Positions 17,064-60,700 are shown, numbered from the stretch's first letter. The stretch: DNA of 64,000 nucleotides from a bacterium CG10_46_32 (GCA_001889965.1 MOEI01000012.1:1170-65169), one strand, 5' to 3'. Notes: generated by a model not told the origin, from the sequence alone. Numbers and translations are program-made.

Positions 17064-17155
17064 GAATGTTTCGATATCTGCATTGGCAAGCGCGGATAAA
17101 ATTTCATCTTCTCTATGGATGCTTGCTGAATACGGGTTAAACGACGTAAATGGAA

Positions 17156-17230
17156 TTAGAAATCAGTAAAACCACTAAAAGCGAAGTATCCTAAAATAAA
17201 ATAAATGAGAATTAACACAGTAGGAATAAT
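17156..17230 (-). pseudogene. remnant 3' end of a cassette-partner-2-like small TM gene
   Basis: It encodes ..IPTVLILIYFILGYFAFSGFTDF* and is roughly 85% identical by eye to 16302-16380. Confidence 0.45.
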
Positions 17231-17236
17231 GTTGAA

Positions 17237-17533: not shown

Positions 17534-17545
17534 AATCCAACTTAC

Positions 17546-23445: not shown

Positions 23446-23476
23446 TTTTTGAGCATAAGTGCGCTATGGTTTGATT

Positions 23477-23552
23477 GGGCCCGTAGCTCAGGGGTTAGAG
23501 CACCACTCTTATAAGGTGGCCGTCGGTGGTTCGATTCCACCCGGGCCTACCA
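23477..23552 (+). tRNA. tRNA-Ile with anticodon UAU (CCA encoded)
   Basis: Hand-folded cloverleaf: acceptor gggcccg/cgggcct, anticodon stem ccact/ggtgg, loop c-t-TAT-a-a, T-loop ttcgatt. The body closely resembles bacterial tRNA-Ile. Confidence 0.85.
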
Positions 23553-23694
23553 CGTCTTAGTCGGATTACAGTCTCCGTATCCGAGCAAAGCTCGGCTACT
23601 CCGGCTTCCATCCGCCTACTCCTTTCAGATTTTCTGTTAACTGAGCAATAGCTCAGCCCAACAGAAAATCTGTGAACGGCCCAAGAAAAAATCT
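23553..23694 (-). ncRNA. tRNA-adjacent conserved element, copy C (minus strand, 3' end abuts the 3' end of tRNA-Ile)
   Basis: It shares AGATTTTCT.TT(G)GG, AGGAGTAGGCGG, the hairpin CCGAG-ctttg-CTCGG and the terminal CCGACTAAGACG with the copies at 50162-50300 and 53417-53549. Confidence 0.4.
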
Positions 23695-41265: not shown

Positions 41266-43611
41266 TTAGTATCGGTCAGCAGGTGTTTCCTCTTCTTTGT
41301 CTGGCGCTTCTGTTTCTATTTCTTCTTCGTCAACCGCATCTGCGCCACCTACCTCCTCAGGATACTCTGCGTCTGGCGCACTAGGAGTACTGGAGGTAAT
41401 TAAAATTTCGCGTGGCCGAGCTCCATCTGCCGGACCGATAATGCCTTCTGCTTCAAGTAAATCCAAAATCCGAGCAGCGCGAGCATAACCAACGCGCAAT
41501 CGCCGTTGCAAAAGCGAAGCCGAAGCTTTGCCGGCTCGGACTACTTCATCACGCGCTTCATCATATAGATCATCTTCCCCGCTTGATCCAGAATCGCCCC
41601 CAAGCGTAGTAATACCACGCTGGCGCTCCACGATTTCGTCTTGGTACTCGACTTCTCCATCTTGCTCTTTAAGAAAATTCACCACGCGCTCAATTTCCGC
41701 ATCATCCAAAAACGGGCCTTGCAATCTTCGTGGTTTATTGGAGTCTGAGCCAGTGAACAACATGTCTCCTCTACCTAACAGTTTTTCCGCGCCCGCAACA
41801 TCTAAAATGGTGCGCGAGTCAATCTGCGATGGCACGGCAAACGCAATGCGCGAAGGGACGTTTGCTTTAATAAGCCCGGTGAGCACGTTTACTGAAGGGC
41901 GCTGAGTGGCAAGTACCAAGTGGATACCAACCGCACGCGCCATCTGCGCGAGCCGCACAATGGCGCCTTCAACCTCGTTTGCGGCAACTGCCATTAAATC
42001 TGCAAGCTCGTCGATCACAAATACAATAGTAGGAATGGTTTCGTTTTTATTAGCTTCGTTATAGGATTCTATGTTGCGTTTTCCACGATTCGAAAGCAGT
42101 TGATACCTGCGCTCCATTTCGCCCACCACCCACTTGAGAGCATTTACGGTTTTTTTAACATCCGTAATCACTGGAGTTAATAGGTAGGGGATATCATTAT
42201 ACATGGTGAGTTCTACTTTTTTCGGGTCAACCAACACGAACTTGAGGTCATCAGGAGAATTCTGGTACATAAGGCTCACAATAAGGGTATTGATGGCAAC
42301 GCTCTTGCCGGAACCTGTTGAGCCTGCAATCAAAAGGTGGGGCATTTTTGCCAAATCCGCGATCCATGCTTTCCCAGAAACGTCCTTGCCAAGACAAATA
42401 GAAAGGTTGTTGCTCCGTGTCTTAAATGCGGAAGAAAGCAGAATATCCTTGAGCTTTACTTTAGCTGCAGCTTTATTAGGAAGCTCAATGCCTACTAATG
42501 ACTTACCAGGAATCGGCGCCTCCATGCGCAACGGATGCGCAGCCAACGCAAGCGAAAGTTCGTTGGAAAGTCCAGTGATGCGGGAAAGTTTTACCCCAAC
42601 TGGTGGGCGCAATGTGTACTGAGTTACGGTTGGACCGACGTTTACTTCGCCCATTTCCACATTAATGCCAAACGTGGCAAACGTCTTCTCTATGTTCTCT
42701 CGGGTCGCATCAACATCAACTGCGCTTGGCTTTTCCAAGCTACTCTCAAGCAAATCAATAGGAATACTAATACGGTTTCTCCTTTTTTTAGCGACGACTG
42801 GCGCTTTCTCGGGCACTTCATCATCAGATACCGCTTCTTCGCTGGTAGTTTCTTCTTCGGCTTCCTCGGATTCTTCTTCGCCCTCTGTTTCTTGCTCTAA
42901 AGCACTGTCCCCGCCTGCAGGAACTTCATTGTATTCACGACGATACTTCCAGACGCGTAATTTTTCAAACAATCGGCTCAATAATCCGGATTGCGCCTCT
43001 ATGACTACTTCTTCTGATTCCGCTTCTTTTTCGGCATCTTCTTCGTCTTCTTCTGATTCGCCGAACAACAAGCTAGAAAGCGAGAGCACTAAACCAACAG
43101 CTGCAATAACTCCCAAAAACACCCATGCGCCCCAATAGCCTGCAATTAAGCTAAACGGGTACTGTAGGGCAAACCCTACATACCCGCCGCCAATACCTGA
43201 AGCTGCGGCGCTCAGGTTATCATCAAAATTCGCAGCATGATGCAAAATCCCGAGTAATGAGCCAAAAAATAAAAATACGCCTACAATCTGCCATCGATTC
43301 AGGCGATAACTGATTTCTTTAAGTAATAGCAGTGCGATAATGGTTAAAAAAATCGGAAATGCATACGCACCCCAGCCAAACGAACGCGCGAGCACTTCTT
43401 TGCCCTGAAGCCCGAATGGGCCAGCTAAATCAAAAAATGCGAGTATCGAAAGCATGCTAGCGGCAAGCAGAATAATTACCAAAATCGCGGTCTTTATGGC
43501 CGGCGAAATAACTGATTCTTCGTCTGTGTCATTGTACGATTTGGTACGCCGACGCTTTCTCTGATACTCTCGCTGGTAGGCTCTTTGTTTCGCTTTGTTG
43601 GTGAATGGCAT
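41266..43611 (-). CDS. ftsK: DNA translocase FtsK/SpoIIIE
   Basis: N-terminal TM helices, an acidic linker, Walker A AGSTGSGKSV, VIDELADLM and the gamma wHTH (ASASLLQRRLRVGYARAARILD). Confidence 0.95.
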   Translation of the reverse strand: MPFTNKAKQRAYQREYQRKRRRTKSYNDTDEESVISPAIKTAILVIILLAASMLSILAFFDLAGPFGLQGKEVLARSFGWGAYAFPIFLTIIALLLLKEISYRLNRWQIVGVFLFFGSLLGILHHAANFDDNLSAAASGIGGGYVGFALQYPFSLIAGYWGAWVFLGVIAAVGLVLSLSSLLFGESEEDEEDAEKEAESEEVVIEAQSGLLSRLFEKLRVWKYRREYNEVPAGGDSALEQETEGEEESEEAEEETTSEEAVSDDEVPEKAPVVAKKRRNRISIPIDLLESSLEKPSAVDVDATRENIEKTFATFGINVEMGEVNVGPTVTQYTLRPPVGVKLSRITGLSNELSLALAAHPLRMEAPIPGKSLVGIELPNKAAAKVKLKDILLSSAFKTRSNNLSICLGKDVSGKAWIADLAKMPHLLIAGSTGSGKSVAINTLIVSLMYQNSPDDLKFVLVDPKKVELTMYNDIPYLLTPVITDVKKTVNALKWVVGEMERRYQLLSNRGKRNIESYNEANKNETIPTIVFVIDELADLMAVAANEVEGAIVRLAQMARAVGIHLVLATQRPSVNVLTGLIKANVPSRIAFAVPSQIDSRTILDVAGAEKLLGRGDMLFTGSDSNKPRRLQGPFLDDAEIERVVNFLKEQDGEVEYQDEIVERQRGITTLGGDSGSSGEDDLYDEARDEVVRAGKASASLLQRRLRVGYARAARILDLLEAEGIIGPADGARPREILITSSTPSAPDAEYPEEVGGADAVDEEEIETEAPDKEEETPADRY

Positions 43612-45471: not shown

Positions 45472-45549
45472 ACTAAAAAAGTACCACAAAATCGGAAAAA
45501 ATACGAGAGTATGGTATAATGCACGCTAATGATATATGCTAAAGTTCAC

Positions 45550-46839
45550 ATGCTAAATCAAATCCAAAATTCAAAAATTAAAAACCGCTTTACTAGTGTG
45601 GCAGGTGGCATATATTTTATAGGTGGACTTTGGATTTTGACAGGTGGGATGCTGCCGCTATCCGCGCGCGCGCAATCCAATGTTATTGTCTCGCAATGGA
45701 TATCCAGCGAAAAACTTGAAAACGGGTACACTGCAACAACCCAAGCACAGGATGTATCACTCACTGCGTCACTACATCGCGCTGCCTTTGTTGAGCTGGT
45801 TGCGCCGGACTACTATCCTGTAGTGCCGATGGATAAATCCCTCATTACTACGGTATACCACTATGCCCTGCTTCCGACAACCGAAAATAAATTATCCGGC
45901 ACTATTGCGATTGGCTTTACATACCCTCTGGACGAGGCACGATTCAAAGAAATCTTTATCTACAACGAAGAGCTTGGCAGGTGGACGCACTTGGCAGGCA
46001 GTATCGATGAGGCGCAACAAAAAATAACCGCGCGCACAAACTGGGCCAGCGGATTTATTGCCGTATTCGCGGACCATATAGAGAGAAGCGATCTCCTCAA
46101 AGAAAAGCTTAATGCCCCAAGCATCCTCGTTGTGGATGCCAAAACCGGAGAAATCCTCCTTGAACGAAATAGCGCAGTGGTGCGACCCATAGCAAGCCTC
46201 ACTAAACTTATGACTGCGGCCGAATTTTTGGAACACAGCCCCGGATGGAGCAAGCGCATTACTATGATTGGCACCGACGACACCATTCCCGCAAAAATCT
46301 ATGTAACGCCAGGCGATGTATTTACGACGCATGATTTATTTTATGCAACACTTTTGCCGAGCGCGAATAATGCGGCGCGCGCATTGGCCCGCGCAACCGG
46401 GCTTTCACGCGAATCATTTGTATCTGCTATGAATGAAAGGGCAAAAATCTTGGGCATGGATTCAACTGCCTACGTGGAACCAACGGGGCTTGCGGCGGAA
46501 AATGTTTCAACCGCACAAGATCTCTACAAACTCTCACGCTCTGTATTTGCAGATATGGAATTTCTCAAAGCAACCACCCCTAAAACATTCACCATAGAAA
46601 GCCTCAAGAACGGCAAGCAGCATGTGCTTACAAACACCAATAAAGCAATGAATGTACCCTATGTGGTCCTGGGATCAAAAACTGGCTACACAATAGAGGC
46701 TGGTCGGAACGTAATCATGAAAGCACGAAATAGCGCAGGGCGCGAAGTTATTGCAATTACGCTCGGAGGCACGTCTCCTGGCGCACAATGGGATGATATG
46801 CGAATACTCTTGGATGCGGCACTAGGAGAACAGCGCTGA
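45550..46839 (+). CDS. serine-type D-Ala-D-Ala carboxypeptidase (PBP5/S11-like) with long N-terminal region
   Basis: SxxK (ASLTKLMT), SxN (PSANN) and KTG (SKTGYT). The N-terminal anchor is paralogous to that of the next gene. Confidence 0.85.
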   Translation: MLNQIQNSKIKNRFTSVAGGIYFIGGLWILTGGMLPLSARAQSNVIVSQWISSEKLENGYTATTQAQDVSLTASLHRAAFVELVAPDYYPVVPMDKSLITTVYHYALLPTTENKLSGTIAIGFTYPLDEARFKEIFIYNEELGRWTHLAGSIDEAQQKITARTNWASGFIAVFADHIERSDLLKEKLNAPSILVVDAKTGEILLERNSAVVRPIASLTKLMTAAEFLEHSPGWSKRITMIGTDDTIPAKIYVTPGDVFTTHDLFYATLLPSANNAARALARATGLSRESFVSAMNERAKILGMDSTAYVEPTGLAAENVSTAQDLYKLSRSVFADMEFLKATTPKTFTIESLKNGKQHVLTNTNKAMNVPYVVLGSKTGYTIEAGRNVIMKARNSAGREVIAITLGGTSPGAQWDDMRILLDAALGEQR

Positions 46840-47988: not shown

Positions 47989-49068
47989 ATGCAAACAAAT
48001 ACAAAAATTACCAAACAAACTGGAAATGGATTGGATGTATTATTTAAAATTGCGGCAGAACAAAAAGCATCTGACTTGCACTTAGTGGCTGGACGACCGC
48101 CGATTATTCGCATTGACGGATCGCTTAAACCTATTGAAGGGTACACAGAATTTACACAAGAGCAACTACAAGAGCTCTTATTTGCCATTGTGAGCCCTGC
48201 GCAAAAAGAAACACTTATCACACAACGCGATTTGGACATGTCGTATGAAATTGATGGCCTCGCACGATTCCGCGTGAATATGCACTGGGAAAAAGGGAAC
48301 CTCGGGCTTGTGGCGCGCGTAGTCACGCACCATATTCCGACTATGGAAGAAATTGCCATGCCTAAAACAGCCTATAACTTAGCGCGGCTCAAAGATGGAC
48401 TCATACTGGTGACTGGGCCAACTGGATGCGGAAAATCAACCACCTTGGCAGCTATGATTAACCTCATTAATACCGAACGCAACGCGAATATCATAACACT
48501 CGAAGATCCAATTGAGTTTATCTTCGACCCTACTGACTCTATCATCGAGCAACGTGAACTGGGTAGCGATGTTCTCACCTTTGCTTCGGGACTTAAGCAC
48601 ACCCTGCGGCAGGATCCCGATGTAATCATGGTAGGCGAAATGCGTGACTTAGAAACTATTGCAGCCACCATGACCTTGGCTGAAACCGGGCACCTTGTGC
48701 TAGCGACCTTGCATACTATTAATGCCGCGCAGACTGTTGACCGTATTATTGACGTGTTCCCACCCTACCAGCAGGACCAAATTCGCGTACAGCTTTCCAT
48801 GTCCTTGCGCGGAGTTATTTCCCAGCGACTACTACTCAAGCAAGGCGGTGGGCGCATTGCTGCGCGAGAAATCCTCATTAATAATTCAGCGATTGCAAAC
48901 CTCATCCGAGAGAACAAAATTGCGCAAATCAAAACGGTAATCCAAACGTCCGCGGAACTTGGCATGATTACTATGGACCAAAATATCAAACAACTTTACG
49001 AAGAAGAAACAATATCCAAAGAGACCGCCATTAGCAACATGCTGGATCCGCACACCCTTTCGATCTGA
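47989..49068 (+). CDS. pilT: type IV pilus retraction ATPase PilT-like
   Basis: ASDLHLVAGRPPIIRIDG, Walker A GPTGCGKSTT, the Asp box, and GEMRDLETI...GHLVLATLHT. Confidence 0.9.
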   Translation: MQTNTKITKQTGNGLDVLFKIAAEQKASDLHLVAGRPPIIRIDGSLKPIEGYTEFTQEQLQELLFAIVSPAQKETLITQRDLDMSYEIDGLARFRVNMHWEKGNLGLVARVVTHHIPTMEEIAMPKTAYNLARLKDGLILVTGPTGCGKSTTLAAMINLINTERNANIITLEDPIEFIFDPTDSIIEQRELGSDVLTFASGLKHTLRQDPDVIMVGEMRDLETIAATMTLAETGHLVLATLHTINAAQTVDRIIDVFPPYQQDQIRVQLSMSLRGVISQRLLLKQGGGRIAAREILINNSAIANLIRENKIAQIKTVIQTSAELGMITMDQNIKQLYEEETISKETAISNMLDPHTLSI

Positions 49069-50021
49069 TGGAAATAAACGACCTACAATCAATTGCTTTA
49101 TTTTCTGATTTAGAAAATGAAGAGCTGGACATAGTGCGCACACTCATGTCGACCCAGCGCTATGCCATAGGCAAAACCATCTACGCTCCAAAAGAGCCGA
49201 GCGACAATTTGTATGTGGTGGCGCATGGCGGAGTTGTTGTTACTCATAAACTCGACGGAGACACTGTTACCTTGGCCCATTTGAGCCAAGGATATTTTTT
49301 TGGAGAAGCCGGACTCCTAAAAGAAAAACAAACACATCAATCAAAAGCTCAATCGGAAATTGATGACACTACACTGTTAGCTTTGAGCCGAAATAATTTT
49401 CTTAAACTTACTGAAAAACACCCAAAGCTCGCACTCGCATTGGTAACAAAAATAGCATCGGTACTGTCAGAACGCCTCACCGAAGACACAACCCGCATCG
49501 CTATTATTTCCGCCATCAGCGACCTTATTACAGACCCCAACCACCTTAATAATATCAAACTCTTGGCAAACGAAATCCTCACTATAACCTTGCGTGCTAT
49601 TCCCGCGGCTACCGGTTTTTTGGGTTTATATAAACGGCACGAACCAAGCCAACTCGAAATCGTCGCTTCAAGCAATATAAGCCCCAAACACCTACCCTAC
49701 ACGCTTCCCGTAGACAGCGACCCCTATGTGCATACACTACACACAGAAAACGACGAACTTGTAGTTCCTCGTATACAATACCAATCCCAAGAAAAAGTAT
49801 TTTACGCAAAACAAAACCTTTTAGGCAGATCTATACGTATTGAAGGGGAAAACATTGGCGTGCTCGTACTCGCGGACAAAACTCGCGGAGAGTTTTCAAA
49901 CCAGAATCGCCTGATGCTCGCCATTATCGCGAGCCAAATTTCATTTGCGCTTCAGGAAGCCCATGTTCGCCAAGAAAAAACCGCTCAAGAAGAGCTGAAA
50001 CGAAAATACGTGGGAATGTAG
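49068..50021 (+). CDS. cyclic-nucleotide-binding domain protein with GAF-like C-terminal domain
   Basis: cNMP-binding beta-roll (YVVAHGGVVV...GYFFGEAGLL) and a tentative GAF-like C-terminal half. Its start overlaps the pilT stop. Confidence 0.65.
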   Translation: MEINDLQSIALFSDLENEELDIVRTLMSTQRYAIGKTIYAPKEPSDNLYVVAHGGVVVTHKLDGDTVTLAHLSQGYFFGEAGLLKEKQTHQSKAQSEIDDTTLLALSRNNFLKLTEKHPKLALALVTKIASVLSERLTEDTTRIAIISAISDLITDPNHLNNIKLLANEILTITLRAIPAATGFLGLYKRHEPSQLEIVASSNISPKHLPYTLPVDSDPYVHTLHTENDELVVPRIQYQSQEKVFYAKQNLLGRSIRIEGENIGVLVLADKTRGEFSNQNRLMLAIIASQISFALQEAHVRQEKTAQEELKRKYVGM

Positions 50022-50066
50022 CTTGATTTTTTGATGAGCTATGCTACTCTATCCTACGCGCACTAT

Positions 50067-50143
50067 GCGCCCTTAGCTCAGCGGATTAGAGCGACTGGCT
50101 TCGGACCAGTAGGTCGGGGGTTCGAATCCCTCAGGGCGCACCA
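50067..50143 (+). tRNA. tRNA-Arg (anticodon UCG), CCA encoded
   Basis: Hand-folded: acceptor gcgccct/agggcgc, anticodon stem actgg/ccagt, loop c-t-TCG-g-a, T-loop ttcgaat. Confidence 0.9.
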
Positions 50144-50161
50144 TCCCTTTTTTCTTTCGTT

Positions 50162-50300
50162 GAAGATTTTCTCTTGGGCCGACACGTCGTACTCGGCGCG
50201 GAGGTTAAGAGAAAATCTTAAGAGGAGTAGGCGGATGGAGGGCGAAGCGGATTCCGTGTACTCACGGGATACGCACAGCCCGCAATGCCGACTACGACGC
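50162..50300 (+). ncRNA. tRNA-adjacent conserved element, copy A (fills the tRNA-Arg/tRNA-Lys spacer, ends at the tRNA-Lys 5' end)
   Basis: A 13-bp stem AAGATTTTCTCTT...AAGAGAAAATCTT, then AGGAGTAGGCGGATGGA, GGCGAAGCGG, the hairpin CCGTG-tact-CACGG, and CCGACTACGACG directly before tRNA-Lys. Confidence 0.4.
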
Positions 50301-50376
50301 GCGCCGTTAGCTCAGCTGGTAGAGCAGCTCCCTCTTAAGGAGACGGTCGGGGGTTCGATCCCCTCACGGCGCACCA
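50301..50376 (+). tRNA. tRNA-Lys (anticodon CUU), CCA encoded
   Basis: Hand-folded: acceptor gcgccgt/acggcgc, loop c-t-CTT-a-a, T-loop ttcgatc. Confidence 0.9.
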
Positions 50377-50378
50377 TT

Positions 50379-50411
50379 AAAAACATCCATCAGTTATTGA
50401 TGGATGTTTTT
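50379..50411. terminator. bidirectional terminator after tRNA-Lys / HU gene
   Basis: aaaaacatccatca-gttat-tgatggatgttttt. Confidence 0.75.
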
Positions 50412-50423
50412 AATGTTAAACTA

Positions 50424-50786
50424 TTACGCGGCGCGTGGTGTCGGCGGCAACGGCGAATGGTCGGGAACTACTGACTCACTGATATCAGGCGCTGCCTTGA
50501 GTGCGTCTTTAAGGGTCTTTCCCGCTTTGAACTTTGGGACAGTTACCGTTGGAATTTTAATACGTTCAGTTGGCTTTTGAGGGTTCACACCCATACGCGA
50601 CTCGCGTGTCCGCGCCACAAACGAACCAAAACCAGTAAGCACAGCTTCTTTACCAGCCTTCATGGAATCAATTACCACATGCACAAACGCATCCATTACA
50701 TCTTCTGCCTCTTTTCGCGAGACATTGGCACGGGACGCGATTTTTTCGAGTAGTTGATCTTTGTTGATTTTGTTTGGATTAGACAT
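50424..50786 (-). CDS. HU/IHF-family DNA-binding protein with proline-rich C-terminal tail
   Basis: From MSNPNKINKDQLLEKIA...: FGSFVARTRESRMGVNPQKPTERIKIPTVTVPKFKAGK. Confidence 0.85.
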   Translation of the reverse strand: MSNPNKINKDQLLEKIASRANVSRKEAEDVMDAFVHVVIDSMKAGKEAVLTGFGSFVARTRESRMGVNPQKPTERIKIPTVTVPKFKAGKTLKDALKAAPDISESVVPDHSPLPPTPRAA

Positions 50787-51683: not shown

Positions 51684-53363
51684 ATGCTAGACTCGTATCA
51701 TATGAAATGGCTTCCTCCAATCGCACTCATTGCAATCTCCATTGCACTCTATGGCGCGACATTTTCAAGGACTATCTACCTCGAAGACAGCCCGGAATTT
51801 GTCGCGGCAAGCCACACACTATCAATACCTCACCCATCTGGATACCCAACCTACTTGATAACCACAAAACTCATTTCGCTGATTCCATTTTTACCTACTG
51901 AAGTTTCCCGAATCAACTTTGTTTCCGCACTGTGGACTATTGCTGCGGTAGTGCTTTTATATTTCGTACTGTTGCGATTATTCTCAAATAGGCTCATAGC
52001 GTTCTCACTCGCGTTCCTGTTTGCAATGAGCCCTATGGTTTGGCAACAAGCAACCTACGCGGAAGTATACTCCTTAAATACGTTCTTTTTTGTATTGCTC
52101 ATAGGGGCTGCTGCGTACTACTACACGCACAAAACCGACAAGCGGCTCTCTCTATTTTTCTTTATCTATGGCTTGAGTCTGACAAATCATTTTCTAGCGC
52201 TTGCGCTTGCCCCGCTCGTCGGAATATGGCTGCTGACAGAAAAGCCAATAATGAAAAACGCACGCTTCTATGGCAACGCTTTTCTATTCTTCCTCGCTGG
52301 CCTCGCGCCCTACCTCTATATCCCAATCCGAAACGCGGGGCGCCCTGCATTCTCCTGGTTTGGTGGAAGCGCGGAAAAAATCCTTACCTATAACATTGCT
52401 TATGGCTACCATGTATCCACAGCAACCATATCCTACTTCGCTGACGTATTTCACCAAATGCTCATAAGCTTTGGATGGTTTGGTGTGGTCGCGTTTCTCG
52501 CTGGCATCGGCGCACTCATCTACTGGAAACATCCCGGCCGCTGGCATATGCTTTCGTGCCTCGGGCTTCTGTCGATTGGATTAATAATTATGCTCACCAA
52601 CGGAAGGCCCTATAGTGAATTTGAAAGCCAATTTTACCAGACACTCTATGTGCCGTTCCTACTAGTGAGCCTCCTGCCAATTGGGTACCTCCTCCAAAAA
52701 ATGTCCAAAAGCCGCTATAAGCTTGTAATTTTCTACACATCGTTGCTTGCGATTCTGATCTGGCCTGCAACGGACATCGGAAATCGATTTTTAAATAATG
52801 ATCGGTCTGGGTATGTGCTCATGGAAAACTATACCAAAGGGTTGATGGAATCACTGCCCACTGATGCCACGCTTTTTGTGCACCACGACCATATTATAAA
52901 TGACACGCTGGTGTTCGGGCTCGCCTACCAGCGCTACGTTGCCGGAATCCGGCCGGATGTGAACCTCTACTCGCTGACGCCGGTATTCCCGCCACCGGAT
53001 GATTTCCAACTTGGTGAAGATCGGAAACAAAAATACACACTGCCGCTCAAGCAGTATCTCGACGAACAGTACGCGCCAGAAGCGGCGAGTGCCACATTTC
53101 CGCGGCCAGAGCACGGATTGCCCGCAACCGCGCCCCAAAACTACATTGCAGACAACCTCTATGTGCCGAGCGCAAACGACAACCTCTACCACCGATCATT
53201 GCTTGCCAAGTACTACTATGACCTTGCCATGCAATCTTACGCAAAAGGAAGCTTGAGCTCGGGCCAGCACTTCCTGATACAGGCAATTAATTATGATCCA
53301 GACCAATTCAGCGACTACTACTATCAAACTCTTTTTATGCGAAGCTACTACTTTGGGAATTGA
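51684..53363 (+). CDS. DUF2723/GT-C-type membrane glycosyltransferase-like protein with TPR-like tail
   Basis: An N-terminus typical of DUF2723 (YLEDSPEFVAASHTLSIPHPSGYPTY), more than 10 TM helices and a C-terminal soluble region. Confidence 0.7.
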   Translation: MLDSYHMKWLPPIALIAISIALYGATFSRTIYLEDSPEFVAASHTLSIPHPSGYPTYLITTKLISLIPFLPTEVSRINFVSALWTIAAVVLLYFVLLRLFSNRLIAFSLAFLFAMSPMVWQQATYAEVYSLNTFFFVLLIGAAAYYYTHKTDKRLSLFFFIYGLSLTNHFLALALAPLVGIWLLTEKPIMKNARFYGNAFLFFLAGLAPYLYIPIRNAGRPAFSWFGGSAEKILTYNIAYGYHVSTATISYFADVFHQMLISFGWFGVVAFLAGIGALIYWKHPGRWHMLSCLGLLSIGLIIMLTNGRPYSEFESQFYQTLYVPFLLVSLLPIGYLLQKMSKSRYKLVIFYTSLLAILIWPATDIGNRFLNNDRSGYVLMENYTKGLMESLPTDATLFVHHDHIINDTLVFGLAYQRYVAGIRPDVNLYSLTPVFPPPDDFQLGEDRKQKYTLPLKQYLDEQYAPEAASATFPRPEHGLPATAPQNYIADNLYVPSANDNLYHRSLLAKYYYDLAMQSYAKGSLSSGQHFLIQAINYDPDQFSDYYYQTLFMRSYYFGN

Positions 53364-53416
53364 CTAGATGGCAAGATGATACTAGAATAGTCCTGTATTG
53401 TATTACAGATTTTCTC

Positions 53417-53549
53417 TTCGCAACTCACTACTTGGGCCGAGGTACTCCGAGGTTAAGGAGTGAGTTGAAGAGGAGTAGGCGAGCGAAAGGCGAAGCGGCC
53501 TCCGAGTAATCTCGGATGACGCGTAGCCTGAAGCACGACTACGACGAGT
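53417..53549 (+). ncRNA. tRNA-adjacent conserved element, copy B (ends at the tRNA-Gly 5' end)
   Basis: AGATTTTCTCTTC..., GAGGAGTAGGCGAGCGAAAGGCGAAGCGG, the hairpin CCGAG-taat-CTCGG and ACGACTACGACG 2-3 nt before tRNA-Gly. Confidence 0.4.
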
Positions 53550-53624
53550 GCGGGTATCGTATAATGGTTATTATGTCAGGTTTCCAACCTGAAAATGGGG
53601 GTTCGATTCCCCCTACCCGCTCCA
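53550..53624 (+). tRNA. tRNA-Gly (anticodon UCC), CCA encoded
   Basis: Hand-folded: acceptor gcgggta/tacccgc, anticodon stem tcagg/cctga, loop t-t-TCC-a-a, T-arm ggggg-ttcgatt-ccccc. Confidence 0.9.
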
Positions 53625-53656
53625 AAAACACCCCGCCGATTCGGCGGGGTGTTTTT
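53625..53656. terminator. bidirectional terminator after tRNA-Gly / uppS
   Basis: aaaaacaccccgccg-attc-ggcggggtgttttt. Confidence 0.75.
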
Positions 53657-55682: not shown

Positions 55683-57176
55683 ATGGCTATTTTTAATCCA
55701 ATACTATTCTTTGTATTAGATGTCTATCGTCAGCTATTAGCTGCGAATGATCCTTTTTATGCTATATTAATTTTGCTGGTGAATGGATTCTGGATTCCGA
55801 TTGCTTTCATCATATACAAAAATGCCGAAATCGCGTGGAAAGATTGGCGGCAAAGCCTCTATCATAATGCAAAAAGGAGATTTATCCTGCTTGCTATCGA
55901 CGTGCCGCGTTTAAACGAACAATCCCCGAAAGCCGTTGAAAGCATCTTTACGCAGCTACATGGCGCGCTTCCCGGACGGAACAATATATACGAAAATTGG
56001 TGGGTTGGAAAAAATGTAGATTACTTTAGCGTTGAACTAGTTTCTATCGAAGGCTATGTTCAATTCTTGGTGCATACGCAGGAGGAGTACCGAGACATGG
56101 TGGAAAGCGCATTTTACTCCCAATATCCAGATGCGGAAATCACGCAAGTGGAAGACTATGTGTACGGCCAAAATGGAGAATTTAAAGATCTTGTATTCCC
56201 CAACAAAGAGTACGATTTGTTTGGTTGTGAATTTGTGCTTGCGCGTTCAAACGCATACCCAATTCGGTTGCATATTGCTTTTGAGCACTCTCTCTCGCAA
56301 GAATTTAAAGATCCTATGGCAAGCCTGCTTGAAAGCATGAACAAAATCGGCCCTGGCGAACAACTCTGGTTCCAATGGGTTATTACACCTGAATATGACG
56401 ACGACTGGCAAAGCAAATCAAACAAAGAGGCCATGAAAATTGCCGGCAAAAAAATAGAGTCATCAGAAAACATTGTTGATAGGGCAGTAAGCACGCTTAT
56501 TAATATGATTGATGCTATTGGCATTGCGGTTTTTCCTTTCTATAACCAAACCGAAGAATCAAAAAAAGATGACGAAATGCTGAGCCTTATGCTGCATCTA
56601 ACTCCAGCAGAACAAGGACGAATTGAAGGCATTCAAATGAAAGCTGATAAACACGGTTTTTGGACTAAATTCAGATACCTGTATATTGCGAAAAAAGCAG
56701 TAGCTTCCAAGGCGCGCGGATTAGCGCCAATTGTCGGAGCCCTGAAACAATTCAGCTCCTTAAATACGAACTCGCTTAAAACGCACAAATACACAAAAAC
56801 ATGGGGTCTTGATTATTTGATGGTGGAACAACGTATCGCAGCCAGACAAAATAAACTTCTCCGAGCATTTCAGGATCGCGGCCGCAGCGCAGGCTCCAAT
56901 GGAATCGTGTTAAACACAGAAGAACTTGCCACACTCTACCACTTCCCAACAGAAACCGTAAAAGCTCCGCTGGTTTCTAGAACTACCTCCAAACGCGGGT
57001 CAGCGCCAGTAAGCTTGCCAGTGGAAGGCGGGCCGCACACACTAGACACTTCGCTTGACGACCAGCCAGCGCAGCCCGCAGAACAAGCAGCCATGCAGCG
57101 CGCAACCGCGCAGGAGGCACAAGAAGCCCGAGCAGCTCATCAAAGTCAAGCGCCAACAAACTTGCCGTTTGTGTAA
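55683..57176 (+). CDS. hypothetical membrane-anchored protein (497 aa)
   Basis: Two N-terminal TM helices, a large soluble domain and a low-complexity Q/A-rich tail. The family was not recognised. Confidence 0.55.
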   Translation: MAIFNPILFFVLDVYRQLLAANDPFYAILILLVNGFWIPIAFIIYKNAEIAWKDWRQSLYHNAKRRFILLAIDVPRLNEQSPKAVESIFTQLHGALPGRNNIYENWWVGKNVDYFSVELVSIEGYVQFLVHTQEEYRDMVESAFYSQYPDAEITQVEDYVYGQNGEFKDLVFPNKEYDLFGCEFVLARSNAYPIRLHIAFEHSLSQEFKDPMASLLESMNKIGPGEQLWFQWVITPEYDDDWQSKSNKEAMKIAGKKIESSENIVDRAVSTLINMIDAIGIAVFPFYNQTEESKKDDEMLSLMLHLTPAEQGRIEGIQMKADKHGFWTKFRYLYIAKKAVASKARGLAPIVGALKQFSSLNTNSLKTHKYTKTWGLDYLMVEQRIAARQNKLLRAFQDRGRSAGSNGIVLNTEELATLYHFPTETVKAPLVSRTTSKRGSAPVSLPVEGGPHTLDTSLDDQPAQPAEQAAMQRATAQEAQEARAAHQSQAPTNLPFV

Positions 57177-58242: not shown

Positions 58243-59268
58243 TTAAACCGCAAGGCAACCAAATGTATTCGTGCGGCGGCTCATAGTATTCACTGCCTGT
58301 GTTAATCCGAATGCATTCCCGTGTTGCAATAAACCAACATACGATTGGACTGATGCGTCCCGCGCCTCTTGAGAACCAAGCCTCATAAGCATTCTGCGTT
58401 TTGATGCGGTCCGTAACACGCAATGATCCGGAAAATGCACCCAGCCCAAAAAATCCACTCCGGAAGAAAGGGTTTTGATAAAAACTTTGTCCGGATGCAG
58501 CGCAAGGTTGAGTTCATGCTCTAAAAATTCCGATATTCTTAGAAGCTGATTACGAAGCCGTTCTTTGTCATGAGATAACATCACAAAATCATCAGCATAA
58601 CGAATGTAGTATTTGGCCTTGAGCTTGTGCTTCACAAATCGGTCAAACTTGTTCATATACACATTAACCAATAGCTGCGAGGTGAGATTGCCAAGAGGCA
58701 GTCCCGCGCCTTTTTTGGTTGAGTGGAAACTGGAGACAATTTGTGAAATGAGCCACCTAATATCGCGGTCCGGCAGGTAACCTTTAATAATCTCGATGAG
58801 AATGTTTTGGTCAATTGAAGCAAAAAACTTTCTAATGTCGCACTTAAGTACCCACACTGTCCGGGTATGATTGCGAGACGCCTTGCGGGCAAACGCCCGA
58901 AACCGGTTCATGGCTCTGTGCGTTCCTTTGCCTAACCGGCACGAGTACGAGTCCGCAATAAATGTCTTGTCAAAAAACGGATATAATACCCGGTATAACG
59001 CATGGTGCAGCAGCCGATCCCGCACGCTGGCTTTGTGAATGTTTCTCGGTTTTGGGTCTGAGATGTTAAAAGCGTAATAAGGCGCGTGCTGATAGGTTTT
59101 GTTTGCCAAATCACGGTGGAGCGCAAAGACATTGGTCATTAAATCGCGTTCAAATTCCTGCACATCCCGGCGGTTGCGCTTGCCGCGGATAAACTCCTGC
59201 CACGCGAGAAGCAGATTATCTACAGAGATGATATACTGGTAACTGCCATTAAAAATAACCTTGCCCAT
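58243..59268 (-). CDS. DGR-2 reverse transcriptase
   Basis: 341 aa with NIHKASVRDRLLHHAL, CDIRKFFASIDQ, LPLGNLTSQLLVNVYMNKFD (DGR-type GxxxSQ) and YIRYADDFVM (YxDD). There is no maturase or endonuclease domain. Confidence 0.9.
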   Translation of the reverse strand: MGKVIFNGSYQYIISVDNLLLAWQEFIRGKRNRRDVQEFERDLMTNVFALHRDLANKTYQHAPYYAFNISDPKPRNIHKASVRDRLLHHALYRVLYPFFDKTFIADSYSCRLGKGTHRAMNRFRAFARKASRNHTRTVWVLKCDIRKFFASIDQNILIEIIKGYLPDRDIRWLISQIVSSFHSTKKGAGLPLGNLTSQLLVNVYMNKFDRFVKHKLKAKYYIRYADDFVMLSHDKERLRNQLLRISEFLEHELNLALHPDKVFIKTLSSGVDFLGWVHFPDHCVLRTASKRRMLMRLGSQEARDASVQSYVGLLQHGNAFGLTQAVNTMSRRTNTFGCLAV

Positions 59269-59665
59269 ACTATGCCGTATTCTACCCCCCCCCCCGACAA
59301 TTTTGCCAGTATTGCAAAAGGTGAAAAGCGCGTATCTCTTGTGGTACGGCTTTTACCAAACGATTCCAAAGAATCACAGGCACTCGCTCGGCAAAAAAAT
59401 TGACACCTTGTTTGTGGAGATCGTTGAGGCGATCGCGACTGCTTGTTTTTTGGTGCGCGCCGAAAAAATCCCGTACGTCCGCAGGGCAATCCAAAAACTG
59501 GATACGCTAAAAATATTTTTAATGATCCTCTGGGAAACAAAATCTTTGGACAACAAAAAGTATGCCGCGCTTTCCGAGCCGCTGGATGAAATAGGCCGCA
59601 TGCTCGGCGGCTGGAACGGCCAGCTTGTAAAACAAAACTCCCCCGCAAAAGCGGGGGAGAAATGA
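59261..59665 (+). CDS. avd: DGR-2 accessory variability determinant (Avd-like); true start probably downstream of the poly-C tract
   Basis: Paralog of the avd at 29209-29562 (...LDNKKYAALSEPLDEIGRMLGGWNGQ). The track ORF starts at the TTG at 59261 and reads the C11 tract as PPPP. Alternative in-frame starts are TTG 59300/59309 and GTG 59318. Confidence 0.8.
   Translation: MPILCRILPPPPTILPVLQKVKSAYLLWYGFYQTIPKNHRHSLGKKIDTLFVEIVEAIATACFLVRAEKIPYVRRAIQKLDTLKIFLMILWETKSLDNKKYAALSEPLDEIGRMLGGWNGQLVKQNSPAKAGEK
59285..59295. repeat. homopolymeric C11 (G11 on minus strand) tract at the divergent RT-2 / avd-2 start region
   Basis: Plus strand reads tcta-ccccccccccc-gacaa. It lies 17 nt upstream of the RT-2 ATG (59268) and inside the longest avd-2 ORF. 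Confidence 0.9.
59629..59659 (-). terminator. terminator-like hairpin immediately 3' of TR2 (inside the avd-2 3' end)
   Basis: Minus strand: ctcccccgc-tttt-gcgggggag followed by ttttgtttt. Confidence 0.55.
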
Positions 59666-59671
59666 AGAGAG

Positions 59672-59795
59672 TTGCGAGGACGAGAGCGGGGTTGCTGGCA
59701 TTCCAGCCGTTGTCGAGCCAGTTGTAGTTCCAGTTCCACCTGTTGCCGTTCCAGTTGAGGTAACGGACATAGAGGTTGTCGTCCGGGTCGCGATT
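59672..59795 (-). repeat. DGR-2 template repeat (TR2)
   Basis: 124-nt gap-free alignment to 60148-60271. In the VR frame it is Asn-rich: NRDPDDNLYVRYLNWNGNRWNWNYNWLDNGWNASNPALVLA. Confidence 0.9.
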
Positions 59796-60027
59796 TGCAT
59801 AACGCGCCTCCTGTGCCACTGCCCCGCGAATACTCTTGGGGCTGTATCGTATTTGGCATCGCAATGCCCTAGCGCGCCATGCCAAGTATCTTCATTTTTT
59901 GAAGTTTCTGCATGCGCCGCGCTATTCCAAACTCTTGATCGGGAATACTCCGGACGCATGGATACTGGATTCGGCAGCGGCCAGCCGTAGCCAACCACAT
60001 ATTCGCCTAATACCGTTTCTATTGTAA

Positions 60028-60076
60028 CAAAAATAAGAGGCCCGCACCATTCGCTATGAACGAATGATGCGGGCCT
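60028..60076 (-). terminator. intrinsic terminator of DGR-2 target gene
   Basis: Minus strand: aggcccgcatcattcg-ttcatag-cgaatggtgcgggcct followed by cttattttt. Confidence 0.65.
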
Positions 60077-60142
60077 TGTCGCGCGAGTTCTAAGGGCTAA
60101 GGCCAAAGATCCAAAAGATCTAAGAACCTAAGCTCGAAGTAC

Positions 60143-60700
60143 TCAACTTGCGAGGACGAGAGCGGGGTTGCTGGCACGCCAGCCGTCGTCGAGCCAGTAG
60201 CAGCCCCAGCGCCACCCGTCGCCGCCCCAGTCGAGGCAACGGACATAGAGGTCGCCGCCCGGGCCGCGATAGATAGTGCCCCAGAAGAACACATACTTGC
60301 CCTTCCACGCCTCGGGAATGAGGTGCGGATTGGCGAGCAGGTAGTCCAGCACGTTCGCGTTGAGTACGTGCCGGGACTTGAGCTCCTCGCGGAGTTTGTC
60401 GCCCTTGATGGAGCCGCAATTTTGCTCCTCTGTGAGGTAAAGCGCGACCTTGGCGGGGTCCCACTCCAACTGGCCGCCCTTGACGTGCTGTTCCACGCTC
60501 CAGCTCTCGGACAGGAACGGATCGGCGTCGCAGTCAATGACGTGCCTCTTGGGTACGATTTCGGCGCGGCCGTGAATCAGGTCCAGAATCCCGGGCCAGT
60601 TATTGAACTGGCCGAGAAGCGTCACGTCGTGAGGCGTGAGGAGCTCGGACTCCAACCTCTCCATCAACTGGTGGGTCTGACCTTCTGAATAAGAAGACAT
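60143..60700 (-). CDS. DGR-2 variable target protein (185 aa, no signal peptide, VR at extreme C-terminus)
   Basis: A GGAGAG SD lies upstream of the ATG at 60700. The C-terminus YRGPGGDLYVRCLDWGGDGWRWGCYWLDDGWRASNPALVLAS is the diversified copy of TR2. Confidence 0.85.
   Translation of the reverse strand: MSSYSEGQTHQLMERLESELLTPHDVTLLGQFNNWPGILDLIHGRAEIVPKRHVIDCDADPFLSESWSVEQHVKGGQLEWDPAKVALYLTEEQNCGSIKGDKLREELKSRHVLNANVLDYLLANPHLIPEAWKGKYVFFWGTIYRGPGGDLYVRCLDWGGDGWRWGCYWLDDGWRASNPALVLAS
60148..60271 (-). repeat. DGR-2 variable repeat (VR2)
   Basis: It covers the last roughly 41 codons of the target. The 20 mismatches to TR2 all correspond to TR minus-strand A. The 3'-terminal 29 nt are identical (an IMH-like region). 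Confidence 0.9.

What the first reader, a model, noticed from the sequence alone, without database searches (positions are those of the whole stretch)
50162..50300. Three copies of a conserved element of about 135 nt, apparently structured, abutting tRNA genes
Copy A (50162-50300) fills the tRNA-Arg/tRNA-Lys spacer, and copy B (53417-53549) ends 0-3 nt before tRNA-Gly. Copy C (23553-23694) is on the minus strand, with its 3' end touching the 3' end of tRNA-Ile. The shared blocks, in order, are: AGATTTTCT[C/G]TT; TTGGGCCG; (A)GGAGTAGGCG[G/A]; GGCGAAGCGG (diverged in C); a 5-bp hairpin with different sequences (CCGTG-tact-CACGG in A, CCGAG-taat-CTCGG in B, CCGAG-ctttg-CTCGG in C); GAT[A/G]ACGC; and a terminal [C/A]CGACTA[C/A]GACG. 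In A and C the 5' block pairs with a downstream AA[G/C]AGAAAATCT to form a 12-13 bp stem. GTAGGCGG can pair with CCGACTAC to close the 3' domain. I did not find hammerhead (CUGAUGA..GAAA), RNase P, tmRNA or SRP signatures. Possible interpretations are a lineage-specific pre-tRNA leader or processing element, a small ncRNA family, or a structured MITE with tRNA-proximal insertion preference.
Basis: seen in the sequence. Interest (0 to 1): 0.6.

Follow-up and report, generated by a model that had tools for sequence, protein, structure and literature searches.

The report
Structured mobile leader RNA on tRNAs
A previously undescribed folded RNA of about 140 nt sits directly in front of many tRNA genes in a clade of ultra-small groundwater bacteria (Patescibacteria); it is most likely cut off by the tRNA-processing enzyme RNase P, and it has spread from gene to gene like a mobile cassette.

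Summary
The window holds exactly three copies, scoring 134, 118 and 110 bits with a covariance model; the next best match scores 17 bits. No Rfam 15 family matches them.

I found 50 copies in all across related Patescibacteria contigs. The 42 that were aligned share a two-hairpin fold with very strong covariation: 95% of cells are paired, and 32 of 36 pairs show changes on both sides.

The 3' end (…CGACUACGACG) lies 1-4 nt before a tRNA 5' end in about 35 copies. It also precedes a tmRNA once and an SD-less AUG twice (rpsT and a small membrane ORF). In five cases it lies inverted against a tRNA's CCA end, like window copy C.

An element-bearing contig encodes RnpA, so the element does not replace RNase P.

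Orthologous loci show two behaviours:
- **Long retention.** The promoter-element-tRNA-Gly unit (copy B) is kept in four genomes.
- **Precise presence/absence.** Copy A is a 157-nt block exactly between tRNA-Arg CCA and tRNA-Lys +1. In a close relative these two tRNAs abut with no spacer.

Best reading: an RNase P-released, RNA-level structured leader cassette that multiplies by insertion at the 5' ends of RNAs. Its biochemical role is unknown. The window also encodes two DGR reverse transcriptases.

The parts
50067..50143 (+). tRNA-Arg(tcg). Its CCA end is the left boundary of the copy A insertion.
   Evidence: ARAGORN; Rfam; comparison with L053
50144..50162 (+). Copy A: C/U-rich 5' flank (TCCCTTTTTTCTTTCGTTG). 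It belongs to the inserted unit.
   Evidence: It is absent from L053, where the two tRNAs abut. A similar flank (TCTCTCCTTTCTCTTTAA) follows the CCA in L048.
50163..50219 (+). Copy A: hairpin P1. The lower stem is variable; the mid-stem motif cUUGGGC...GUUAAg, with two G-U pairs, is conserved.
   Evidence: Fold; covariation
50224..50299 (+). Copy A: 3' rod domain P2-P5. The core GGAGUAGGCGG...CCGACUACGACG carries G.A mismatches.
50300..50300 (+). Copy A: 1-nt spacer before tRNA-Lys +1.
50301..50376 (+). tRNA-Lys(ctt). Its 5' end is the presumed RNase P site that frees copy A.
50379..50412 (+). Hairpin plus T-run after tRNA-Lys; likely the operon terminator.
   Evidence: Read directly from the sequence. 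The consensus scan did not call it.
53360..53388 (+). Sigma-70-type promoter TTGACT-17-TAGAAT of the copy B / tRNA-Gly unit.
   Evidence: Scan; conserved in L054, L056 and L057 (alignment A4)
53408..53419 (+). Remnant of an older copy's P1 5' strand (AGATTTTCTCTT).
   Evidence: Analogous truncated upstream copies appear.
53421..53467 (+). Copy B: hairpin P1 (CAACTCACT.../...AGTGAGTTG).
53472..53546 (+). Copy B: 3' rod domain.
53547..53624 (+). 3-nt spacer (AGT), then tRNA-Gly(tcc) at 53550-53624.
53625..53656 (+). Hairpin plus T-run after tRNA-Gly; likely terminator.
   Evidence: Read directly from the sequence
23477..23552 (+). tRNA-Ile(tat). Its CCA end abuts the 3' end of copy C. Its promoter TTGATT-17-TATGGT ends 6 nt before +1.
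   Evidence: The antisense strand folds as a mirror cloverleaf.
23553..23622 (-). Copy C: 3' rod domain (core GGAGUAGGCGG...CCGACUAAGACG).
23626..23672 (-). Copy C: hairpin P1.
23677..23694 (-). Remnant of an older copy (AGATTTTTTCTTGGGCCG) upstream of copy C.

Best explanation
The element (called E here) is a family of non-coding RNA cassettes of about 140-160 nt, specific to a Parcubacteria-like clade of Patescibacteria.

Each cassette is transcribed on its own strand, either from a promoter just upstream or from within an operon, as the 5' leader of the next RNA. It folds into two rods:
- P1, with a conserved UUGGGC/GUUAA wobble motif.
- A long P2-P5 hairpin with conserved purine-purine mismatches.

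It ends in ...CUAC-GACG, 1-4 nt before the mature 5' end of a tRNA or tmRNA. RNase P, which these organisms have, would cut at that tRNA 5' end and release E as a discrete, highly structured RNA (inferred, not shown).

The family multiplies by inserting new copies precisely at such boundaries. Older copies are pushed upstream and decay. The constraint acts on the RNA, so the copying most simply goes through, or is selected on, the RNA form.

What the released RNA does is unknown. It could bind a protein or the ribosome, or it could simply be a tolerated selfish passenger. Where it has landed in front of SD-less mRNAs, its conserved AGGAG at the base of the rod sits 7 nt (in effective spacing) from the AUG and could serve as a split Shine-Dalgarno.
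For: **Real RNA structure.**
- On a MAFFT alignment of 13 copies, 22 of 36 pairs show compensatory changes.
- On 42 copies, 95% of cells pair, against 73% in shuffles and 31-38% with slid partners. 32 of 36 pairs change on both sides, and 0 of 500 shuffles reach this.
- Mutual information recovers the helices.
- Two G-U pairs are almost invariant, which ties the structure to this strand.

**Position.**
- About 35 copies end 1-4 nt before a tRNA of many identities; the mode is 1 nt.
- One copy ends 1 nt before a tmRNA.

**Transcription.** The promoter TTGAC(T/G)-17-TA(G/A)AAT, then E, then tRNA-Gly and a terminator-like hairpin in the window, is conserved in four genomes.

**RNase P is present.** RnpA (PF00825, 70.6 bits) lies with yidD and yidC on a contig carrying three E-tRNA units.

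**Discrete cassette behaviour.**
- Relative to L053, where ...CACCA|GCGCC abut, window copy A is a 157-nt block exactly between CCA and tRNA-Lys.
- Copy C is absent from the closest relative L049, at exactly the CCA boundary.
- An rpsT-proximal copy occurs only in L051.
- Upstream copies in tandem pairs keep P1 but have a broken 3' domain.
- Subfamilies do not follow orthology, and copies within CAZTBF are near-identical.

**Structure is kept over deep divergence.** This holds at two orthologous loci whose flanking proteins are 49-70% identical.
Against: - No transcript or cleavage data exist, so RNase P release is inferred from position alone.
- The two copies in front of AUG codons (L034, L051) have no tRNA-like structure downstream, so RNase P cannot define their 3' ends.
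- Copy C has no detectable promoter on its own strand and sits just after a terminator-like hairpin, yet it is structurally almost intact.
- No insertion machinery has been identified. There are no target duplications or terminal repeats, and no transposase among the window ORFs that were scanned with Pfam.
- Long retention at some loci could equally reflect host benefit rather than turnover.
Confidence: 0.5

Rival explanations
1. E is a host-beneficial trans-acting RNA gene family. The released two-rod RNA is the product, for example a scaffold or decoy for a protein or for the 30S subunit. It is made in quantity by riding on strong tRNA promoters, with RNase P used only to form its 3' end. 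Movement between loci is rare and incidental.
For: - Non-Watson-Crick motifs are conserved: tandem G-U plus a bulged G in P1, and G.A pairs and purine loops in P2-P4. They covary isosterically, for example G.A<->A.G at columns 156/199.
- The structure is intact in antisense-placed copies whose core sequences are altered but still paired.
- E is retained in situ at the Gly and ORF-E-Arg loci over 49-70% protein identity.
- The linker GAAAGGAG is complementary to the 16S 3' end CUCCUUUC.
Against: - There are many diverged copies per genome rather than one or a few.
- Closest relatives differ in presence or absence at the same site.
- Upstream tandem copies decay.
- Complementarity to the 16S 3' end is weaker in the GGAAGAGG and GGAAAAGG variants.
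Confidence: 0.2
2. E is a cis-acting leader or punctuation module kept for the benefit of the flanking genes. On this view it insulates tRNA folding, offers an RNase III-type site in P1 and an RNase P-friendly leader (GACG-N), caps upstream mRNAs with a protective 3' structure after cleavage, and supplies a split Shine-Dalgarno to mRNAs.
For: - E starts at the stop codon of an orthologous membrane-protein gene in four genomes.
- It lies between tRNAs, and between 16S rRNA and tRNA-Phe.
- Both mRNA cases have the identical junction GACG-AU-AUG. That puts AGGAG 7 nt from the AUG once the rod is folded out.
- The organism otherwise lacks SD sequences: only 5 of 40 genes have one.
- The base at position -1 is never G.
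Against: - Relatives manage with zero-spacer tRNA-tRNA junctions and with promoters ending 6 nt before tRNA +1, so the module is dispensable.
- Inserting E after tRNA-Arg makes that tRNA's 3' maturation harder, not easier.
- Copies placed antisense cannot serve the tRNA in cis.
Confidence: 0.15
3. E is a DNA transposon of the MITE or PATE type. Its hairpins would be recognised as single-stranded or cruciform DNA by a transposase encoded elsewhere, and it would target the cloverleaf DNA of tRNA genes on either strand.
For: - Presence/absence is precise.
- Both orientations occur relative to tRNAs, always with the same end of E facing the tRNA.
- The antisense tRNA folds as a mirror cloverleaf.
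Against: - There are no terminal inverted repeats or target duplications.
- Conserved G-U pairs would be A-C mismatches on the other strand.
- The tRNA targets share no sequence.
- Two insertions lie at AUG codons with no cloverleaf.
- No transposase was found among the window ORFs scanned with Pfam.
- There are no hits in viral contigs.
Confidence: 0.08
4. E is a self-cleaving ribozyme, or a cis-acting substitute for RNase P, that generates the 5' end of the downstream RNA.
For: E has a compact conserved structure placed immediately 5' of mature RNA ends, including two AUG codons in an organism that uses leaderless mRNAs.
Against: - The spacer to tRNA +1 varies from 1 to 6 nt, so a cut at fixed distance cannot give exact ends.
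- RnpA is present in an E-bearing contig.
- No ribozyme family matches even at E<=10.
- No pseudoknot or tertiary covariation was seen.
- Many tRNAs lack E.
Confidence: 0.03

Closest known systems
MALAT1 / MEN-beta with mascRNA: a non-coding RNA whose 3' end is made by RNase P at an adjacent tRNA-like structure (own knowledge; Rfam RF01684 is the mascRNA family)
   Same: A structured non-coding RNA lies immediately 5' of a tRNA or tRNA-like fold. The RNase P cut that frees the tRNA 5' end would at the same time create the upstream RNA's 3' end.
   Different: E is bacterial, about 140 nt and multi-copy, and it uses genuine tRNAs and a tmRNA. It has no triple-helix 3' end. Cleavage has not been shown here.
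Dicistronic tRNA-linked small RNAs: plant tRNA-snoRNA genes and murine gammaherpesvirus 68 tRNA-miRNA units (own knowledge)
   Same: A small structured RNA is co-transcribed with a tRNA and separated from it by tRNA-processing enzymes.
   Different: In those cases the small RNA lies downstream of the tRNA and RNase Z does the cutting. E lies upstream and its function is unknown.
Bacterial repeated structured extragenic elements: Correia/CREE, ERIC, REP/BIME, BOX (own knowledge)
   Same: They are short, multi-copy and non-coding, are co-transcribed with neighbouring genes, form strong hairpins, and vary in presence between relatives.
   Different: Those are DNA palindromes or TIR elements with sequence-defined targets. 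E has two distinct hairpins with conserved G-U and G.A pairs, no TIR, and a junction precise to the nucleotide with the 5' ends of RNAs.
SINE-type retroposons, and tRNA capture by the Mauriceville retroplasmid reverse transcriptase (PMC9925561 citing Chiang & Lambowitz 1997); end-to-end template switching by group II intron RTs (bioRxiv 10.1101/792986, abstract)
   Same: The non-coding element is constrained at the RNA level. Its 3' junction is precise and its 5' side variable. The junctions coincide with mature RNA termini: tRNA +1, the CCA 3' end in inverse orientation, and the 5' end of a leaderless mRNA. They carry 0-4 extra nucleotides.
   Different: No partner RT is shown to act on E, and there is no poly(A) or target duplication. 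The only RTs seen are two DGR enzymes, which are not known to mobilise other RNAs.
Leaderless tRNA genes of Nanoarchaeum equitans (PMC3491384, PMC10100707)
   Same: In this clade some tRNA promoters end 6 nt before tRNA +1, so transcription would start at the mature 5' end.
   Different: Here RNase P is present. E-bearing tRNAs have the opposite arrangement: a leader of 150-200 nt.
Split Shine-Dalgarno with an intervening hairpin, as in phage T4 genes 38 and 25 (own knowledge)
   Same: In the two mRNA cases AGGAG and the AUG are separated by a long hairpin that would bring them within about 7 nt of each other.
   Different: There are only two cases and translation has not been tested. Most copies precede tRNAs.

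Membership tests
Any Rfam 15 family (including hammerhead, HDV-like, twister, pistol, hatchet, hairpin ribozymes, T-box, 6S, SRP, RNase P, tmRNA, Y RNA) | A score at or above the family's gathering threshold | tested here: not met
   The gathering scan of the whole window returned only the 4 tRNAs. An E<=10 scan of 50000-50450 returned nothing credible on the element.
RNase P-matured upstream ncRNA (MALAT1/mascRNA-like logic) | The 3' end lies immediately 5' of a tRNA or tRNA-like structure | tested here: met
   About 35 copies lie 1-4 nt before tRNAs and one lies before a tmRNA. Copies placed antisense face a mirror cloverleaf. Two copies face an AUG instead.
RNase P-matured upstream ncRNA (MALAT1/mascRNA-like logic) | RNase P is present in the organism | tested here: met
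   RnpA (PF00825, 70.6 bits) lies next to yidD and yidC on contig L031, which carries three E-tRNA units. rnpB itself was not found in the sequence held.
RNase P-matured upstream ncRNA (MALAT1/mascRNA-like logic) | Cleavage at the junction is demonstrated and the upstream RNA accumulates | not testable with these tools
   This needs RNA-seq or end mapping, or an in vitro RNase P assay.
MITE / DNA transposon derivative | Terminal inverted repeats and target-site duplication | tested here: not met
   The ends (TCCC.../AGATTTT... and ...CGACTACGACG) are not inverted repeats. The empty-versus-filled comparisons show no duplication.
MITE / DNA transposon derivative | Presence/absence polymorphism at orthologous sites | tested here: met
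   Compare window A with L053-L055, window C with L049, and L051 rpsT with L049/L050/L052/window.
SINE-like retroposon | Constraint at the RNA level and a strand-specific structure | tested here: met
   G-U pairs are conserved at two positions (36 and 31 of 38 sequences with letters), and compensatory changes occur throughout.
SINE-like retroposon | A precise 3' junction with a variable or truncated 5' side | tested here: inconclusive
   The 3' junction is precise everywhere. Older copies upstream are truncated at their 3' side by newer ones. In one subfamily the 5' end also looks defined.
SINE-like retroposon | A partner reverse transcriptase that recognises the element's 3' end | tested here: inconclusive
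   Two RTs are encoded in the window, but both are DGR enzymes with TR/VR pairs. The DGR regions share no sequence with E.
Self-cleaving ribozyme / RNase P substitute | A fixed cleavage geometry that gives the exact mature 5' end | tested here: not met
   The spacer to tRNA +1 is 1, 3, 4 or 6 nt, and RnpA is present.
Small protein-coding gene | A conserved ORF | tested here: not met
   The internal ATG (GGCGGATGG) is replaced by GGCGGGCGG, GGCGAGCGA and similar, and covaries as part of a stem.

The most novel reading that the evidence does not exclude
E is a bacterial SINE-like retroposon. On this reading, a reverse transcriptase begins copying E RNA at its conserved 3' rod and GACG tail, using as primer whatever 3' end is at hand.

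- If it is primed by the CCA-3'OH of a mature tRNA, the product is tRNA-CCA followed by antisense E. This is the arrangement of window copy C and four other loci.
- If it is reached by end-to-end template switching from a cDNA that has just run to the 5' end of a mature tRNA, a tmRNA or a leaderless mRNA, the product is E plus 1-4 extra nt plus that RNA. This is the arrangement of copies A and B, the tmRNA copy and the two AUG copies.

Recombination through the tRNA or mRNA body would then place the fusion in the chromosome. That would make E the first non-autonomous retroposon family described in bacteria, and a record of RNA ends written into DNA.
Probability: 0.2. Interest if true: 0.9.

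Novelty: new variant of a known kind. Interest (0 to 1): 0.7.

Why it matters
Three points would matter if this holds.

- **A new RNA class.** It adds a well-supported structured RNA family from the candidate phyla radiation, where very few non-coding RNAs are known. It comes ready with an alignment, a covariance model and a testable processing prediction: RNase P makes its 3' end.
- **Its junctions.** They coincide to the nucleotide with mature RNA termini: tRNA and tmRNA +1, the CCA end in inverse orientation, and the start codon of SD-less mRNAs. Close relatives differ in presence or absence at these sites. That pattern is hard to produce with DNA-level transposition. It opens the possibility of RNA-mediated gene-to-gene spread in bacteria that also carry reverse transcriptases.
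- **tRNA expression in ultra-small bacteria.** It bears on how these bacteria organise tRNA genes. The same genomes show zero-spacer tRNA pairs, promoters ending 6 nt before tRNA +1, and mostly leaderless mRNAs, alongside leaders of 150-200 nt on other tRNAs.

Tried and rejected
- **Rfam.** The gathering scan of the window and the E<=10 scan on copy A found no family.
- **Hammerhead-type motifs.** CUGA and GAAA near the linker are not conserved across copies.
- **Coding potential.** The internal ATG is not conserved.
- **Pseudoknot or tertiary pairs.** Mutual information found only the secondary structure and an extension of P5.
- **K-turn reading of the GGA/GAC base.** The strand topology does not fit; this is my own inspection.
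- **Phage origin.** There were 0 hits in viral contigs.
- **Promoter for copy C on its own strand.** None was found, only a terminator-like hairpin just upstream.
- **E as a replacement for RNase P.** Rejected, because RnpA is present.
- **P1 sequence tracking the identity of the adjacent tRNA.** I saw no correlation on inspecting.
- **Pairing of the C/U-rich 5' flank with the purine linker (an extended P1).** It is present in B, L048 and L003 but not conserved at the Gly orthologues.
- **Orthologue of the L034 small ORF.** None was found in the sequence held, so conservation of that E-ORF junction could not be tested.
- **High-GC hits from the pattern scans.** Actinobacteria, Chloroflexi and similar, plus L033, L044 and L047, are chance matches inside ORFs and were discarded.
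- **Literature.** Five keyword searches found no description of the element.

Full report

Yes. The three stretches read as described. ARAGORN and Rfam place tRNA-Arg(tcg) at 50067-50143, tRNA-Lys(ctt) at 50301-50376, tRNA-Gly(tcc) at 53550-53624 and tRNA-Ile(tat) at 23477-23552.

- Copy A fills the Arg/Lys spacer.
- Copy B ends 3 nt before tRNA-Gly.
- Copy C lies on the minus strand, and its last base touches the CCA end of tRNA-Ile.

The two-block pattern GGAGTAGGCG-N30-60-CGACTAMGACG occurs three times against none in 100 shuffles. Each copy folds far better than its shuffles (z = -5.1 to -6.8). A covariance model scored at every position of the window finds these three at 134, 118 and 110 bits, and nothing else above 17 bits.

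**2. Source organism**

The window is a normal chromosome segment of 'bacterium CG10_46_32', a Patescibacteria MAG; the best protein hits are named Parcubacteria or Patescibacteria group. It carries housekeeping genes: IF-2, GreA, RecA, FtsK, ArgRS, Pol I, RNase Y, the CCA-adding enzyme and UppS.

**3. A conserved RNA family**

One scan of species-representative genomes and one of metagenomes, both with the conserved pattern, returned 48 loci. About half were chance hits inside high-GC ORFs. The rest carry the full element. Further copies came from contigs fetched through flanking proteins.

The hosts are Komeilibacteria, 'Parcubacteria group' and unnamed MAGs. Several are labelled Gammaproteobacteria, but their proteins are 58-59% identical to the window's and syntenic with it. 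Viral contigs gave no hit.

The covariation is strong:
- A MAFFT alignment of 13 copies gives an RNAalifold structure in which 22 of 36 pairs have compensatory double changes.
- On 42 model-aligned copies, 95% of cells pair, against 73% after shuffling and 31-38% when partners are slid.
- 32 of 36 pairs change on both sides, and no shuffle in 500 reaches the observed values. That alignment is fitted to the model, so it leans towards the structure. The independent MAFFT result and a mutual-information scan agree with it.

**4. Anatomy**

From 5' to 3':
- A C/U-rich flank.
- P1, a hairpin of about 22 bp. Its lower stem differs in almost every copy. Its middle carries the conserved c-UU-GG-(G)-C ... 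G-UU-AA-g motif, with two near-invariant G-U pairs.
- A purine linker, consensus GAAA.
- A long irregular rod, P2 to P5.

The base of the rod reads G-C, G.A, A.G, GUAG/CUAC, G.A, CG/CG. Two 3x3 purine loops follow, and they covary non-canonically.

Even the most conserved helix shows compensatory variants: GUAG/CUAC becomes AGAG/CUCU or AAAG/CUUU. The conserved G-U pairs tie the fold to this strand, that is, to RNA.

There is no ORF, because the internal ATG covaries as part of a stem. No Rfam family matches, and five literature searches found no description.

**5. Position rule**

The tail ...CUAC-GACG is followed after 1-4 nt (mode 1, never G) by the 5' end of a tRNA in about 35 copies. The tRNA identities include Lys, Gly, Asp, Ala, Val, Arg, Leu, Ser, Met, Pro, Phe and Ile.

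Other placements:
- In L001 it is followed after 1 nt by a tmRNA (Rfam, 60 bits).
- In L036 it lies between 16S rRNA and tRNA-Phe.
- In five loci the element is inverted, and its 3' end meets the CCA end of a tRNA on the other strand. These are window copy C, L027, L039 and L045, plus L037, where only a tRNA 3' fragment is present.
- In two loci it is followed by AU and then the start codon of a protein gene: a small membrane ORF in L034 and rpsT in L051.

When two copies lie in tandem, the upstream one keeps P1 (17/17 pairs in three of the four) but has lost much of the 3' domain (5-13 of 19 pairs).

**6. Transcription and processing**

Copy B has a sigma-70-type promoter, TTGACT-17-TAGAAT. 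After tRNA-Gly comes a hairpin with a T-run. The promoter, the element and tRNA-Gly are conserved in the same order in three other genomes whose YmdB is 57-70% identical to the window's. So the element is part of the primary tRNA-Gly transcript.

Copy A is internal to an Arg-E-Lys operon.

A contig with three element-tRNA units also encodes RnpA next to yidD and yidC (PF00825, 70.6 bits). RNase P is therefore available, and the element is not a substitute for it.

RNase P cleavage at tRNA or tmRNA +1 would release the element with a 3' tail of GACG-N. This step is inferred. The antisense of tRNA-Ile folds as a mirror cloverleaf, so the same could hold for inverted copies. That is untested, and copy C has no recognisable promoter and sits just after a terminator-like hairpin.

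**7. Evolutionary behaviour**

Two patterns coexist.

*Long retention.*
- At the Gly locus the four orthologous elements differ throughout, including P1 and the core variant, yet all fold.
- At another locus the element starts at the stop codon of an orthologous membrane-protein gene in four genomes with 49-58% protein identity. The downstream tRNA has been swapped in one of them.

*Precise gain or loss.*
- In L053, whose YmdB is 76% identical to the window's, tRNA-Arg and tRNA-Lys abut with no spacer (...GCGCACCA|GCGCCGTTAGC). L054 and L055 have 1 nt. The window has 157 nt exactly there.
- L056 and L057 also have an element between Arg and Lys, but with a different 5' flank. On the YmdB identity matrix this needs at least one precise gain or two precise losses.
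- At the DHH - tRNA-Ile - CCA-enzyme locus, copy C is absent from the closest relative L049, exactly at the CCA boundary. L051 has a sense copy, and L050 and L052 have none.
- The rpsT copy is unique to L051.

Two further observations fit turnover. Subfamilies defined by the 3' domain do not follow orthology: copy B resembles copies before tRNA-Ser, tRNA-Arg and the tmRNA in other genomes. And the four copies in CAZTBF share an almost identical 3' domain.

Together with the truncated upstream remnants, including those at 53408-53419 and 23677-23694 in the window, this is the behaviour of a cassette that repeatedly inserts next to the same kind of boundary.

**8. What defines the boundary?**

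The tRNA targets share no sequence. The window's genes mostly lack Shine-Dalgarno sequences (5 of 40) and have a TATAAT-like box 6-9 nt before the ATG. The tRNA-Ile promoter ends 6 nt before tRNA +1. In this lineage, therefore, transcripts tend to start at the functional 5' end.

The common denominator of all junctions is then an RNA terminus:
- tRNA and tmRNA +1.
- The 5' end of a leaderless-type mRNA.
- In inverse orientation, the CCA 3' end.

Such junctions, with 0-4 extra nucleotides, are what reverse transcription of E RNA would leave if it were primed by a tRNA 3' end or reached by end-to-end template switching. Both are known RT properties (PMC9925561, citing Chiang & Lambowitz 1997; bioRxiv 10.1101/792986).

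The window does encode two reverse transcriptases, but both belong to classical DGRs. Their TR/VR pairs show 16/17 and 19/19 mismatches at template adenines, and nothing links them to the element. I therefore keep retroposition as the most novel reading that is not excluded (about 0.2), not as the main claim.

**9. The two mRNA cases**

Both have the junction GACG-AU-AUG. With the rod folded, the conserved AGGAG at its base lies about 7 nt from the AUG. In L051 it reads GGAGGAG. The linker GAAAGGAG is complementary to the 16S 3' end CUCCUUUC read in L036. This suggests that the element can supply a split Shine-Dalgarno to genes that were leaderless. Translation has not been tested, and there are only two cases.

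**10. Verdict**

The finding is a genuine RNA family that I could not find described. It is best described as an RNase P-released structured leader cassette on tRNA and tmRNA genes, with mobile-element dynamics. Its biochemical role is open.

It resembles known tRNA-linked non-coding RNAs in its processing logic, and repeated extragenic elements in its dynamics. It is a member of neither group.

Noticed in passing
window 27242-30688 (RT part of ORF 27242-29218 on the minus strand; TR 29577-29694; VR 29961-30078 in ORF 29957-30688 on the minus strand): This is a diversity-generating retroelement. An RVT_1 domain (52 bits) sits next to a 118-nt repeat pair in which 16 of 17 mismatches fall at template adenines. 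The RT reading frame runs without a stop into holA (DNA pol III delta), giving one 658-aa mechanical ORF.
   Followed up: partly
window 58243-60700 (RT 58243-59268 on the minus strand; TR 59672-59794; VR 60148-60270 at the 3' end of ORF 60143-60700 on the minus strand): This is a second diversity-generating retroelement. It has an RVT_1 domain (80 bits) and a 123-nt repeat pair in which 19 of 19 mismatches fall at template adenines.
   Followed up: partly
whole window, for example 9443-10189(-), 41266-43611(-), 45529-46839(+), 47989-49068(+), 55683-57176(+): Only 5 of 40 genes have an SD-like motif. Many have a TATAAT-like box 6-9 nt before the ATG, so leaderless mRNAs appear to be the rule in this organism.
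   Followed up: partly
window 23434-23552; L049 270-387; L050 2850-2965: The tRNA-Ile promoter (TTGATT-17-TATGGT or similar) ends 6 nt before tRNA +1. Transcription would therefore start at the mature 5' end, making this a leaderless tRNA as in Nanoarchaeum.
   Followed up: partly
window 23477-23552; L049-L052: The tRNA-Ile has the unusual bacterial anticodon UAU. It is conserved at the same locus in four relatives.
   Followed up: no
window 23434-23552 compared with L050/L051/L052; L056 6328-6656 compared with window 50067-50376: Whole tRNA cassettes are inverted in place between related genomes while the flanking genes keep their orientation. This applies to promoter plus tRNA-Ile, and to Arg-E-Lys.
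   Followed up: partly
L053 3080-3232; L048 6502-6654; L032 1045-1196; L039 6274-6437: Adjacent tRNA genes abut with zero spacer. A single cut at the downstream tRNA's 5' end would also make the upstream tRNA's CCA end.
   Followed up: no
L048 6796-7083 (-): A tRNA is interrupted by a group I intron (Rfam RF00028, 85 bits). It lies directly upstream of an element copy.
   Followed up: no
L022 2190-2600 (-): The 5' half of tRNA-Ser(tga) is duplicated, with about 300 nt of unrelated sequence between the partial and the full copy. This looks like the footprint of an insertion into the tRNA gene.
   Followed up: no
L051 1553-2532: An HTH / Peptidase_M78 gene pair (ImmA/IrrE-like) is inserted between DHH and tRNA-Ile in CAZTBF only.
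   Followed up: no
window 8000-20000: This stretch has lower G+C (about 0.40 against 0.47). It contains LexA-like, PIF1-helicase and ADP-ribosylglycohydrolase genes and a 1237-aa LCAT/beta-helix protein, and may be an island.
   Followed up: no
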